A stretch of DNA of 21,366 nucleotides from a virus. Made by a program: the position numbers. Shown here piece by piece: positions 15,001 to 18,000 of this stretch (position 1 is its first letter; each line of letters begins with the position of its first letter). The stretch is from the UHGV virus genome UHGV-2192570. The stretch is one strand, 5' to 3'.

Positions 15001-18000
15001 TGCTTACCACACATTGGGTAGACGGATGTATCAGGCAGAAGTGTAATTAACCGGAAAAAATCCCTTTCAGTCTGACGGGCAAAAAAAAACCGTAGTGCGA
15101 TAACACTACGGCATGCCACCAAAGAAACATAACAAGGAATCAACAATGAGTAACACCTGTAAGCCTTCGGGGTGATTGTAACACATGAGCAATCTTTTAC
15201 TGGAAACTGTTTTTCACTGGATCACGTATCGTTATGGGGATTCCCATATCGGAGAGCATCCACCAGCTTCATAGGGGATAACCGGAAAAATTCCGGTAAA
15301 TATTTGCCTGAGTAAGTCATCAAGCGCCTGCTAAATGTGTATAGAAATGTGTATAGGATTGATTTTAGAACATGTGGAAATGGCTTTATTACTGGTGGCA
15401 TGGCTTGTTGTTCTGTTCCCTTCGCCGCTCCAGTCTCCTGATAAATCAAGAAGTTACGATTTATCAGTTAGTTACGTTGCCCCGCTAAAGCAGGTACAAC
15501 TTAAACTACCCATTGTTCTACGCCCGCACCTGTCGCGTGATTGGTCTGTGGTACAAGGGAGCATATCATCACGCTGGCGGTGGTTCCACGTTCTTACCGC
15601 GACAGCACAACAACGAACAAAAAGCCGCATACCTGGCACAACTCCCAAACAGATTGATCACACGCATTTAAGCCCGATGTGTGGCCCTATAAGCCACGTA
15701 AACAGGTGAATAGTGGTAATGCCCCGGTAGCTACAGATCCGGCTCTGCCAGCGCTTCGCTCACGCTCCTAACGGTACACGAGCACCCTGATAAGGTGTGA
15801 TCCCTCTGACAATCTGATGCAGTCGCCTAACGGCTTCACTTGTCTCCTTACCACTAACGGGGCTTTATGGATGCTATTGTCTGTGACCTAGTTAGTTGTA
15901 AAATCATAAAAAATTTCATGTGATGTTAAGCACCTGTATGGATCAAAGGACGGCACTATGGTTAAAAATTACGAGGAAGAATCATTTAAAGTTATCAGTC
16001 GATTCATTGCATTACACTTAACCCCAGAAAGATTAATGAAGATCGGGGCTTTTGTTGTTTGTTATGGTCAGTTTGAAACAACTTTGGAGCGTGCCTTATG
16101 GACTCTGAGAGAGATTGATGTAAAAGGAGTTAGGCCCTTTACCGAAAAATTGCCATCTGATAAATGGTTCGAGTATTTGGGAAATGGTAATGATAAACTT
16201 AGCAATGAATGTAATACAGTCTTAAATCTTGCTTCTCTCGCTGCTATTGATTTGGCTGATTATAGGAATAGTTTGGTTCATGGATATTTATTACCGCTGG
16301 GTGATAAGCCTTCATTCATGAGAAATCCAAGATGGCATGGTGAACTTAGGAATAAAAGAACAGGCGATGCCTATATCGAAGAGCCACTCCTAGATCTTGC
16401 TATTATTTCTGGATGGACATTATTTAGGGTTGTTAGTCTAACAGAAAAAATTTTTGAGGATGAATCGGCAGAACCCTCAATAGTTATGTTAGAAAACGAA
16501 GTAAGAGAGGCACGAAGCTGTACAAATGAGTTACGCCATCTCAGAAGTTTAATGAATGAAGAGAAATATTAGTCAAAATCTTGAATTTCAATTATGAGAT
16601 ATAGGAGGTTTTATGGATGGTGTTTGTAAGTTATGTCTTGAAGCAAAAGAACTTCAGGAATCACACAGTATCCCTAGAAGTTTCTTTAACAAAGCAAAAG
16701 GAAACGGCGGTCAAGTTATCTCTATGCAAAAAGGAAGGGAACCAAGAAGAGAAAATTTAGATCCTAAAGAACCAATGCTATGTTTTGAATGCGAACAATT
16801 TCTTAGTGGTCAATACGAGTCTTATGGGATCAGATTGCTAAGAAACCCTCACAACATTAGAAAGAACTCTGATCACATTATTATTAGCAACTTCGATTAC
16901 AAGCGCTTTTATCTATTTCTATTATCCATACTATGGAGAGCCTCTAATGCTATGGACCTGCATTATTCTTCGGTGGTAGGGAATCCTGATTTTGGAGAGA
17001 TGATGAGGCACTGCATTAAAAATAACATTGTTAGGTTTAATAATAAGAGTCAGGTTAAAATTGATAATTTTATCAAGATTAGAGTGCTACGGATTGTTGA
17101 TAGCACTGGCAATATTCCTGATCATGTCATCAAATCGGTCCTCACGAACTTTGCTTTTGGTGAGATTGAAAGTATCAATGGGATTGGATGGTATTTTATA
17201 GCTGAAGGTTTTATCTTTCACTATGTATTTTATCCTGGTGAAAATTACTATGATGCCCGCACTACAAGATTGAACTCACAGCTTACATCTGGAAGTCATC
17301 AGAAAATACAAAAAGTAGAGGTATCTAAAGATAGAATGTTGTCAGAAATGTTTAATTATATGATCGAATGTTCGAAAGGCTATCATCAACAAAGACAATA
17401 ATGATTTTTGTTCTTTTGCCTCTCCATGAAAGGAATTGTTTTCCCCTTTATATAACCTTTACGCCACAGGCCCCAACCAATAAAAAAGGCTAGCCCATAA
17501 AGGCTAGCCCGTTGAATTTTTATTACTTCCCAATAATCTGCCGGAGTTTCTTTTTCTCCAACATAATTTTTAACGCTCGCTCAAAGCCGTACTGTTTTTC
17601 ATAGCGGCATAGAGACACCTGATCGATCCCCAACTTACGCGCCAGGGCTGAACGGTTGATCACGTCGGCATTGGTTGAGGTGTACACCTCTCCCAAGGCT
17701 GGAATGTTAAGGCTAATCTTCACTACTCACCTCAAATGGTAAAAAGCCCCAGCAATGCCAGGGCTTAAAGTCTGTTACTTGCTGCCTTACTTCAACTTAA
17801 CGTTGAGCAGGTAGGACGGACGCAGTACCAGAGGAATATGACTTGATTCCTGATGGATGGTTACCATGTTGTAACGGTCAACCATCACTTTCTGGTAGTA
17901 CGGGCTGATCACGCCTTTAGCGGCAATATCCTGATTACGGGAAGCCGGGCCGCGCACCAGTTTGAACGGGTTACGATCAGCACTGGAGAACTTAGGAACG

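What the first reader, a model, noticed from the sequence alone, without database searches (positions are those of the whole stretch)
15958..17401. AT-rich two-gene cassette with HEPN-like and HNH-like motifs: candidate undescribed defence or toxin system
Two tightly linked genes are far more AT-rich than their surroundings, indicating foreign cargo. Gene A carries a possible HEPN RNase Rx4H motif (RNSLVH). Gene B opens with an HNH-like zinc-finger pattern, with Glu/Gln where the final His or Asn is expected, followed by about 200 residues of unknown function. The cassette sits downstream of Q and ends at a terminator. I know of no system with this architecture.
Basis: partly seen in the sequence, partly recalled or inferred. 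Interest (0 to 1): 0.85.

Follow-up and report, generated by a model that had tools for sequence, protein, structure and literature searches.

The report
Two independent defence-hotspot cargo genes
The two AT-rich genes are real, but they are separately mobile cargo (a predicted solo HEPN RNase and a zinc-finger protein from a very large unnamed family) in an exchangeable slot of a small phage-related island where sister elements carry known anti-phage genes, so they are best read as two single-gene defence candidates rather than one new two-gene system.

Summary
Two ORFs (15958-16572, 204 aa; 16613-17401, 262 aa) have GC 0.36, against 0.50 +/- 0.025 elsewhere. Both motifs are conserved across homologues, and a bidirectional terminator follows. 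The "downstream of Q" context is accidental: Q belongs to a different island, separated by an att site.

The cassette is the exchangeable cargo (15883-17532) at the tRNA-Gly-proximal end of a ~15-kb capsid-gene-bearing integrative element. Sister elements keep both flanks but carry an Old nuclease, a type IV restriction enzyme or other unknown genes there.

The two genes are not an obligate pair. Gene A has a gene B relative nearby in 2 of 52 loci, both copies of this element. Gene B-family genes have a gene A relative nearby in 0 of 80 species-level loci.

Gene A meets the published structural and motif criteria for HEPN but matches no HEPN profile; its closest analogue is the solo HEPN defence protein HepS. 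Gene B belongs to an unannotated family of ~8,300 clusters with no similar solved structure. The HNH reading is unconfirmed, and the resemblance to the DUF4238 defence protein covers one N-terminal motif only.

Defence function is inferred from context and has not been shown.

The parts
15410..15432 (+). Degenerate att copy (3' end of tRNA-Gly glyU, one base deleted). It marks the right end of island 1 and the left end of island 2.
   Evidence: The sequence is GTTCTGTTCCCTTCGCC-GCTCCA, against the exact 24-bp repeat GTTCGATTCCCTTCGCCCGCTCCA that flanks island 2 in LR-29-1 (L001 17609-17632 and 32789-32812).
15433..15882 (.). Conserved, apparently non-coding left arm of the hotspot (GC 0.50).
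   Evidence: 94.7% identical to E. coli EC24 (L130 3806-4277) and 85% identical to Klebsiella L008, in both cases upstream of different cargo. GC.
15883..17532 (.). Exchangeable AT-rich cargo segment: gene A, gene B and the terminator.
   Evidence: No similarity to EC24 between the two conserved arms. EC24 has three unrelated genes there. GC is 0.359.
15877..15904 (+). Promoter-like site (TTGTCT-16-TAAAAT) at the cargo boundary. Weak evidence.
   Evidence: Consensus scan. The number of sites found is not above the shuffled expectation.
15958..16572 (+). Gene A: 204-aa predicted solo HEPN-fold RNase, from a compact unannotated proteobacterial family.
16264..16281 (+). Codons for R103-N-S-L-V-H108, the Rx4H motif.
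   Evidence: R103 and H108 are invariant and N104 is at least 90% conserved. The motif lies at the C-terminal end of model helix 83-108.
16613..17401 (+). Gene B: 262-aa member of a very large unannotated family, with an N-terminal 4-Cys/His module, an LSILWRAS helix and a C-terminal alpha/beta domain.
16625..16792 (+). Codons for C5...C60: CxxC, S-H-x-I-P, CxxC (putative zinc-binding module with a conserved His).
   Evidence: Conservation in alignments A2, A3 and A4.
16922..16945 (+). Codons for L104-S111 (LSILWRAS motif).
   Evidence: S105, I106 and R109 are invariant in A2. S105, L107, W108 and R109 are at least 90% conserved in A3.
17488..17509 (.). Bidirectional intrinsic-terminator-like hairpin between the convergent gene B and the small gene.
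   Evidence: Scored on both strands: 8-10 bp stem with 6 GC pairs, and T-runs on both sides.
17523..17723 (-). Small conserved 66-aa gene that forms the right arm of the hotspot.
   Evidence: 85% nt identity to EC24. A short reverse-strand gene of 66-71 aa occupies the same position in L008-L011, L019, L020 and L022, and the reverse-strand ORFs next to gene A in L104, L136, L137 and L171 cluster as one family. No PHROG hit.
17787..18863 (-). Major capsid protein gene of island 2 (context).
   Evidence: RefSeq annotation in LR-29-1. phrog_29 major head protein, 1.6e-17.

Best explanation
The 1.65-kb AT-rich segment is the swap-in/swap-out cargo of a hotspot at the tRNA-Gly-proximal end of a ~15-kb integrative element. 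That element has an integrase and a major capsid gene, and looks like a phage satellite or a prophage remnant. The segment holds two modules that move independently and probably act independently. They are probably co-transcribed, reading into a shared terminator.

Gene A (inferred mechanism): a solo HEPN ribonuclease. By analogy with other HEPN enzymes it would oligomerise so that two Rx4H motifs form a metal-independent RNase site. It would stay latent in uninfected cells and be switched on by a phage component. It would then cut tRNA, mRNA or rRNA and stop translation, which is abortive infection.

Gene B (mechanism largely unknown): a stand-alone protein of a very large family, with a four-cysteine putative zinc site next to a conserved His. 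It most likely also serves anti-phage defence. A nucleic-acid-directed activity is possible but not shown.

Shown here: gene reality, conservation, the hotspot architecture, the separability of A and B, and the fit of gene A to HEPN criteria. Inferred: RNase activity, a defence role for either gene, and co-transcription.
For: Hotspot:
- Exact 24-bp att repeats bound island 2 in LR-29-1.
- Both arms are conserved in EC24 (94.7% and 85%) around entirely different cargo.
- The equivalent slot holds an Old-family nuclease in SCU-316 and 90-1 (PADLOC Old, 1.3e-45).
- A McrA-like type IV restriction enzyme sits beside a gene A homologue in Klebsiella (4.4e-24) and is the nearest upstream ORF of at least 120 aa to a gene B homologue in Symbiopectobacterium (2.2e-24).

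Separability:
- hmmsearch with both family profiles finds A and B together in 2 of 52 gene A loci (both 98-100% copies of this element) and in 0 of 80 species-level gene B loci.
- Elements with A alone lose similarity at A's stop codon. The element with B alone (L022) picks up similarity about 12 bp into gene B's ORF.
- The neighbours of both families vary in size, strand and spacing.

Gene A as HEPN:
- R103 and H108 are invariant, N follows R, and E40 and E44 in helix 2 are invariant.
- The model has a four-helix core with an insert between helices 2 and 3, and the motif lies at the end of helix 3. All of this matches the definition in PMC3710099.
- A solo HEPN defence protein with the same logic, HepS, has been proven experimentally (PMC13043305).

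Gene B in defence company:
- Its neighbours across phyla match SoFic, DRT, AbiGi, ZorD, PtuA, MADS and PADLOC candidate families.
- Relatives sit in positions typical of accessory 'moron' genes in temperate Acinetobacter phages.
Against: - There is no experimental evidence for defence, toxicity or RNase activity.
- The defence-neighbourhood evidence for gene B has no matched control set.
- In Enterobacterales, gene B often has a tightly linked upstream gene of variable identity, and some of these have predicted transmembrane segments. This leaves room for partner dependence.
- The A-B pair does recur once in diverged form (L023), so some joint benefit cannot be excluded.
- The nature of island 2 as a satellite is not established. 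Only an integrase, a capsid gene and a tape-measure-like N-terminus were recognised.
Confidence: 0.55

Rival explanations
1. A and B form a true two-component system: gene A is the HEPN RNase effector and gene B is its sensor, regulator or nuclease partner.
For: The genes are 40 bp apart on the same strand with one terminator after both. The arrangement recurs in a diverged copy, L023, at 72% nt identity across both genes.
Against: Gene A has no B-family gene nearby in 50 of 52 loci, and gene B-family genes have no A nearby in 80 of 80 species-level loci. Gene A at 77% identity stands alone in three satellites, and gene B at 87% follows an unrelated protein. Divergence within L023 is discordant, A 62% and B 83%.
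Confidence: 0.12
2. In the enterobacterial clade, gene B is a conserved core that works with swappable upstream effectors: the HEPN protein here, and proteins with predicted transmembrane segments elsewhere. This would resemble the effector swapping seen in CBASS-type systems.
For: Close gene B relatives are preceded within about 3-66 bp, or by an overlapping ORF, on the same strand, by unrelated small proteins. These are gene A (2 contexts), one family with a predicted TM segment (L012 and L024, the latter truncated), a protein with two predicted TM segments and CxxC pairs (L022), a 162-aa protein with two predicted TM segments (L026), and a 208-aa protein (L015).
Against: At least 8 of 22 close contexts have no plausible operon partner. 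Neighbours across the wider family are unrelated and often on the other strand. Gene A and the 208-aa protein also occur without gene B. TM calls come from a simple hydropathy scan only.
Confidence: 0.1
3. The cassette is an addiction or stabilisation module (toxin plus antitoxin, or a toxin with an unseen RNA antitoxin) that keeps the island in the chromosome, rather than an anti-phage function.
For: HEPN proteins are toxins in HEPN-MNT toxin-antitoxin systems (PMC3710099). A Pseudomonas homologue of gene A lies next to plasmid parA/parB genes.
Against: There is no MNT or any other conserved neighbour of gene A. A and B are separable, so B is not a dedicated antitoxin. Rfam finds no RNA in the cassette.
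Confidence: 0.08
4. One or both genes serve the element's own life cycle (helper-phage interference or packaging) or counter host defences, rather than acting as defence genes.
For: They are carried by a capsid-encoding mobile element. Gene B relatives occur in temperate phages.
Against: Life-cycle genes are normally conserved within an element family. This slot is the variable one and elsewhere holds Old and type IV restriction enzymes. Both families also occur outside such elements, on plasmids and in IS-flanked chromosomal sites.
Confidence: 0.1

Closest known systems
HepS (HEPN Solo defence element, Gifsy-1 prophage of Salmonella 14028; PMC13043305)
   Same: A single HEPN-domain protein on a mobile element, in an accessory-gene position and without partner genes. 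It has a canonical Rx4H motif with N after R (R100-N101-H105, against R103-N104-H108 in gene A). HepS is an abortive-infection anticodon nuclease triggered by a phage tail-tip protein.
   Different: Homology was not tested because the HepS sequence could not be obtained here. The gene A profile found no HEPN chain among PDB sequences at E<=10. Gene A's family was seen only in Proteobacteria, whereas HepS homologues are reported from Bacillaceae to Enterobacteriaceae. The trigger, target and oligomeric state of gene A are unknown.
Single-gene HEPN abortive-infection proteins (AbiV, AbiJ, AbiU2, AbiD/F classes; PMC3710099)
   Same: Stand-alone HEPN proteins in defence contexts, predicted or shown to be metal-independent RNases.
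   Different: None of the PADLOC or Pfam models for these families matches gene A, even at E<=1. According to PMC3710099, AbiV typically lacks the motif His, which gene A keeps.
HEPN-MNT type II toxin-antitoxin systems
   Same: A small HEPN toxin with an Rx4H motif.
   Different: No nucleotidyltransferase gene is adjacent in any of 52 loci, and gene A has no conserved neighbour.
DUF4238 single-gene defence system (P2 hotspot, anti-T7; Rousset et al. 2022, PMC9122126)
   Same: A single protein of ~250-330 aa with no known mechanism, carried in mobile-element hotspots. It shares an N-terminal motif (SHIIPxFxYK against HHYVPQCYLK) that scores above 30 of 30 shuffled controls. The order of conserved H...E...R residues is similar. 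UniRef labels two gene B homologues as DUF4238.
   Different: PF14022 matches the validated protein at 1.4e-39 but none of the gene B-family members scanned (181 member scans in two overlapping alignments). hhalign probability is only 16% over ~35 columns, and the global alignment fails. DUF4238 has no CxxC pairs, and gene B lacks the conserved W199, D215/P217 and N275 region of DUF4238.
Zinc-finger HNH (beta-beta-alpha-Me) nucleases, e.g. McrA-like type IV restriction enzymes
   Same: The linear pattern CxxC...H-I-I-P...CxxC resembles HNH with a CCCC zinc site. A few family members give HNH_5 or HNH_2 matches with best E-values of 0.0014-0.009.
Defence hotspots of phage satellites and prophages (P4/P2 hotspots, PMC9122126)
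   Same: Conserved flanks around highly variable, AT-rich cargo next to an att site. The cargo includes known defence genes such as Old and type IV restriction enzymes.
   Different: The carrier element is different: it integrates at glyU and carries a capsid gene. It is rare, found in 13 of 5,426 complete E. coli genomes, and I did not find it described.

Membership tests
HEPN superfamily (gene A) | Conserved Rx4-6H motif with a polar residue (N, D or H) right after R | tested here: met
   R103-N104-S-L-V-H108. R and H are invariant and N is at least 90% conserved in 55 homologues. Criterion taken from PMC3710099.
HEPN superfamily (gene A) | Four-helix up-down bundle, with an insert between helices 2 and 3 and the motif at the end of helix 3 running into the loop to helix 4 | tested here: met
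   AF2 model, pLDDT 86: helices 5-18, 23-51, (insert 52-82), 83-108 and 144-163. R103-H108 lies at the C-terminal end of helix 83-108 (one search compared). This rests on a predicted structure, not a solved one.
HEPN superfamily (gene A) | Conserved acidic residue in helix 2 (typically Ex3[KR]) | tested here: inconclusive
   E40 and E44 are invariant and R45 is at least 90% conserved, all within helix 23-51. The spacing is E40-x4-R45 or E44-R45, not the typical Ex3[KR].
HEPN superfamily (gene A) | Significant profile or structural match to a known HEPN family | tested here: inconclusive
HEPN superfamily (gene A) | Metal-independent RNase activity that depends on the motif His | not testable with these tools
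   Needs biochemistry.
HepS family (gene A) | Sequence or structural homology to HepS | not tested
   The HepS sequence was not obtainable: LT2 Gifsy-1 lacks it and no supplements are held. The solo architecture and motif type do match.
HEPN-MNT toxin-antitoxin (gene A) | Adjacent minimal nucleotidyltransferase antitoxin gene | tested here: not met
   No conserved neighbour in 52 loci. Neighbours recur only within copies of the same element.
HNH nuclease (gene B) | Match to an HNH profile at or above the curated threshold | tested here: not met
   0 of 181 member scans (two overlapping alignments) came near Pfam's curated cut-offs. 7 HNH_5 and 1 HNH_2 matches had best E-values of 0.0014-0.009. 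The N-terminal profile searched against PDB found no HNH.
HNH nuclease (gene B) | beta-beta-alpha-Me fold with catalytic His, Asn, and a His/Asn metal ligand | tested here: inconclusive
DUF4238 / Rst_DUF4238 defence protein (gene B) | Match to Pfam PF14022 | tested here: not met
   0 of 181 member scans at E<=0.01, and P0134 and P0149 give nothing even at E<=10. The validated TA007 protein scores 1.4e-39.
DUF4238 / Rst_DUF4238 defence protein (gene B) | Profile-profile homology over the domain | tested here: inconclusive
   hhalign of A3 against a 12-sequence DUF4238 profile gives probability 16%, P 0.0016 and score 31.6, over the N-terminal motif only. The shuffled maximum was 23.3 and the reversed control 14.6. 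The global alignment fails.
Obligate two-gene system (A+B) | The two genes co-occur across diverged homologues | tested here: not met
   2 of 52 gene A loci (both the same element) and 0 of 80 gene B-family loci carry the other gene within +/-4 kb. One further pair, L023, has discordant identities.
Mobile-element defence hotspot | Conserved flanks, variable cargo, and known defence genes among the alternative cargo | tested here: met
   Flanks are 94.7% and 85% conserved against EC24, with unrelated cargo between them. Old and mREase_IV are among the alternatives.

The most novel reading that the evidence does not exclude
The gene B family has about 8,300 clusters at 50% identity, spans many phyla, is absent from Pfam, NCBIfam and PADLOC, and has a confident model with no similar solved structure. 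It could be a widespread, mechanistically new single-gene immune family. Its enterobacterial branch may work with swappable upstream effectors, the solo HEPN protein A being one of them.
Probability: 0.25. Interest if true: 0.7.

Novelty: new variant of a known kind. Interest (0 to 1): 0.45.

Why it matters
If the predictions hold, gene A would add a new, compact HEPN family to the recently established class of solo HEPN abortive-infection proteins. It would also offer a second system in which to ask how such enzymes sense phage.

Gene B would give a first functional handle on a very large protein family, thousands of clusters across many phyla, that has no annotation and no structural relative.

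The hotspot itself has sharply defined arms at the glyU tRNA-Gly site. It is a ready-made place to mine further cargo, such as the three unknown genes in strain EC24. None of this changes the general picture that mobile elements carry exchangeable defence genes.

Tried and rejected
- Direct family assignment. Pfam, NCBIfam and PADLOC gave nothing for either protein. PHROGs gave only unknown-function families for gene B.
- Megablast of the cassette against phage genomes: no match.
- Link to the Q antiterminator: rejected, because Q lies in a separate island beyond an att site.
- Upstream partners as diverged gene A. The 208-211-aa proteins upstream of gene B in Cronobacter and Pantoea are not gene A: BLASTP shows no similarity and the A1 profile does not hit them.
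- DUF4238 membership of gene B, suggested by UniRef names. Rejected at the HMM level; only a motif-level signal remains.
- HNH assignment by structure and by a domain-only profile: no support.
- The AFDB Foldseek library was unavailable, so gene B's fold could not be compared with predicted structures, including DUF4238 models.
- A second profile search for gene A found only the same compact family and no annotated distant relatives.
- The HepS comparison failed for lack of the sequence.
- Rfam found no RNA family in the cassette.
- The promoter scan was not above chance.
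Full report
**1. Observation.**
They are on the same strand, 40 bp apart, and each has a Shine-Dalgarno-like sequence. The AT-rich block is 15883-17532. Its GC is 0.359, against 0.496 +/- 0.025 for 329 same-size windows elsewhere in the window, whose minimum is 0.439. GC3 is 0.29 and 0.32, against 0.59 for the neighbouring capsid gene. A GC-rich hairpin at 17488-17509 scores as a terminator on both strands. Both genes are real. Gene A has more than 200 full-length homologues and gene B has thousands.

**2. Context.**
The window holds two integrative elements in tandem at the glyU tRNA-Gly site, between actS and the ETT2 region.

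- Island 1 (1-15432) carries an integrase, Rha and AntA/B regulators, Icd, a primase, SSB, ProQ, PerC and the Q-family antiterminator at 13300-13695. It occurs on its own at this site in strain OkiPb01712.
- Island 1 ends at a degenerate copy of the tRNA 3' end at 15410-15432.
- Island 2 starts there. In E. coli LR-29-1 it sits alone, directly after tRNA-Gly, and is bounded by exact 24-bp repeats. The cassette comes first and the integrase is at the far end.
- Island 2 encodes a major head protein, an integrase and a protein with a tape-measure-like N-terminus. It looks like a phage satellite or a prophage remnant, but this is not established.

The position "downstream of Q" is therefore an accident of tandem integration.

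The full cassette occurs in 2 of 5,426 complete E. coli genomes. A third genome has an IS1-truncated remnant. Island-2-type capsid regions occur in 13 of the 5,426 genomes.

**3. The cassette is hotspot cargo.**
Compared with strain EC24 (same tRNA site), window 15410-15882 is 94.7% identical and 17533-17794 is 85% identical. The 1.65 kb between these arms is replaced in EC24 by three unrelated genes. Other sister elements carry different cargo at the equivalent position:

- an Old-family nuclease (PADLOC Old, 1.3e-45);
- a McrA-like type IV restriction enzyme plus a 208-aa protein plus a gene A homologue;
- gene A alone;
- a 191-aa protein with a hydrophobic N-terminal stretch and CxxC pairs, plus gene B.

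Similarity breakpoints fall at gene boundaries. Elements with A alone stop matching at A's stop codon (16571). The element with B alone (L022) starts matching at 16625, about 12 bp into gene B's ORF.

**4. A and B are separable.**
I searched the ORFs of the fetched gene A and gene B loci with profiles of both families.

- Among 80 gene B-family loci taken from one genome per species, none has a gene A relative within +/-4 kb.
- Among 52 gene A loci (48 metagenomic and 4 viral; 43 have at least 1 kb of downstream sequence), only two have a gene B relative. Both are 98-100% copies of this same element.
- One further pair exists (L023), but its identities are discordant: A 62%, B 83%.
- Gene A at 77% identity stands alone in three satellites. 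Gene B at 87% follows an unrelated protein.
- Neighbours of both families vary in size, strand and spacing, and recur only within copies of the same element.

The "two-gene system" is therefore not supported.

One weaker possibility remains. Close enterobacterial gene B relatives often have a tightly linked upstream gene of variable identity, and some of these have predicted transmembrane segments. However, at least 8 of 22 such contexts have no plausible partner.

**5. Gene A.**
No curated family matches it. A profile of 55 homologues finds no solved relative by sequence. The family is compact (47-100% identity), was seen in gamma- and betaproteobacteria, and has no Pfam annotation among the members listed.

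Invariant residues include E40, E44, R59, R103, H108, N123, R131, K133 and D137. The AF2 model (pLDDT 86) is a helical bundle with helices at 5-18, 23-51, 83-108 and 144-163. There is an insert at 52-82 and a small hairpin after helix 3.

The published HEPN definition (PMC3710099) requires:
- a four-helix up-down core;
- frequent inserts between helices 2 and 3;
- the Rx4-6H motif at the end of helix 3;
- a polar residue after the Arg;
- an acidic residue in helix 2.

Gene A fits each point, except that the acidic residue does not have the typical Ex3[KR] spacing.

I rate a HEPN RNase at about 0.7. The closest characterised analogue is HepS, a solo HEPN anticodon nuclease on Gifsy-1 that is triggered by the phage tail-tip protein (PMC13043305). 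I could not obtain its sequence to test homology.

**6. Gene B.**
An exhaustive profile search finds 8,324 clusters at 50% identity with E<=1e-3, of which 1,586 have E<=1e-30. Among the 150 best hits listed, nearly all are full-length at about 240-265 aa. The genome survey places family members in many phyla.

The HNH reading rests only on the linear Cys/His pattern and on HNH_5 or HNH_2 matches in 8 of 181 member scans, with best E-values of 0.0014-0.009. An N-terminal-domain profile recovers no HNH nuclease from PDB sequences, and hhalign against a McrA-like HNH gives probability 1.6%.

UniRef calls two homologues "DUF4238 domain-containing". DUF4238 is a validated single-gene anti-T7 system from a P2 hotspot (PMC9122126). 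I tested this link as follows:
- I took the validated protein from that paper's supplement. It hits PF14022 at 1.4e-39.
- No gene B-family member scanned matches PF14022.
- Profile-profile comparison against a 12-sequence DUF4238 alignment built from plasmid homologues aligns only the N-terminal motif, SHIIPxFxYK with HHYVPQCYLK. Probability is 16% and the score is 31.6. The maximum in 30 column shuffles was 23.3 and the reversed control scored 14.6.
- The global alignment fails.

The link to DUF4238 is therefore a motif-level resemblance, and membership is not shown.

**7. Defence context of gene B.**
The 142 nearest large neighbours of gene B-family genes across 80 species match many PADLOC families. 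These include type IV restriction enzymes, SoFic, a DRT reverse transcriptase, AbiGi, ZorD-like, PtuA, MADS components and several candidate families. There is no matched control set, so this is qualitative. Relatives in temperate Acinetobacter phages sit in positions typical of accessory "moron" genes and are annotated only as hypothetical.

**8. Verdict.**
It is wrong on the central architectural claim.

The best reading (about 0.55) is two independent single-gene candidate defence modules in a mobile-element hotspot. Gene A would act as a latent solo HEPN RNase that causes abortive infection. Gene B's mechanism is open. Function is inferred throughout and nothing here demonstrates it.

Interest is moderate. 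Hotspot cargo of this kind is common, but the size of gene B's family, its lack of annotation and its lack of any structural relative make it a worthwhile experimental target.

Noticed in passing
window 1-15432: A complete PICI/P4-like satellite (island 1) with an integrase, int-alpA RNA (1299-1366), isrK (5653-5729), C4 antisense RNA (5754-5841), a primase-like gene, SSB, ProQ/FinO, PerC and a Q-family antiterminator. Compared with strain OkiPb01712 it differs in blocks 3494-4007, 4347-5034 and 7050-9455.
   Followed up: partly
window 4033-6066: A 677-aa ORF in island 1 overlaps the blocks that do not match the reference island. It may be island-1 cargo. I did not analyse it.
   Followed up: no
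window 15410-15432; L001 17609-17632 and 32789-32812: Two different islands are integrated in tandem at one tRNA-Gly. The middle att copy is degenerate (two mismatches to the core and a 1-nt deletion), which may lock the two elements together.
   Followed up: partly
window 15433-15882: A ~450-bp apparently non-coding stretch of normal GC is conserved (85-95%) upstream of different cargo in E. coli and Klebsiella elements. It could be a shared promoter or regulatory region, or a packaging or replication element.
   Followed up: partly
window ~19195-20935 (L001 21395-23135): About 1.7 kb of island 2 has no annotated gene in the RefSeq record.
   Followed up: no
L003 6159-6323 (E. coli GDSC2227PM): A remnant of gene A (first 55 codons, 100% identical) is cut by IS1. 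The sequences that normally follow at this locus are absent, and IS1 is followed directly by yqeG.
   Followed up: partly
L130 4328-5883 (E. coli EC24): Three unknown genes (188, 165 and 143 aa) occupy the same hotspot. They have no PADLOC hits, and the first matches only unknown-function PHROGs. They are further untested cargo candidates.
   Followed up: partly
L148, L151, L155 (downstream of gene A homologues); L143: By eye, a recurrent 242-aa neighbour has a C-terminus that looks like a PD-(D/E)xK or NucS-type endonuclease domain. Another neighbour carries its own R-x4-H motif (IRKIRNEFAHS). Neither was checked with a tool.
   Followed up: no
L008 5194-5820 and L015 5298-5924: A 208-aa protein family (67% identity between the two copies) lies next to a gene A homologue in Klebsiella and next to a gene B homologue in Pantoea. 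It is a third shuffled module of unknown function.
   Followed up: partly
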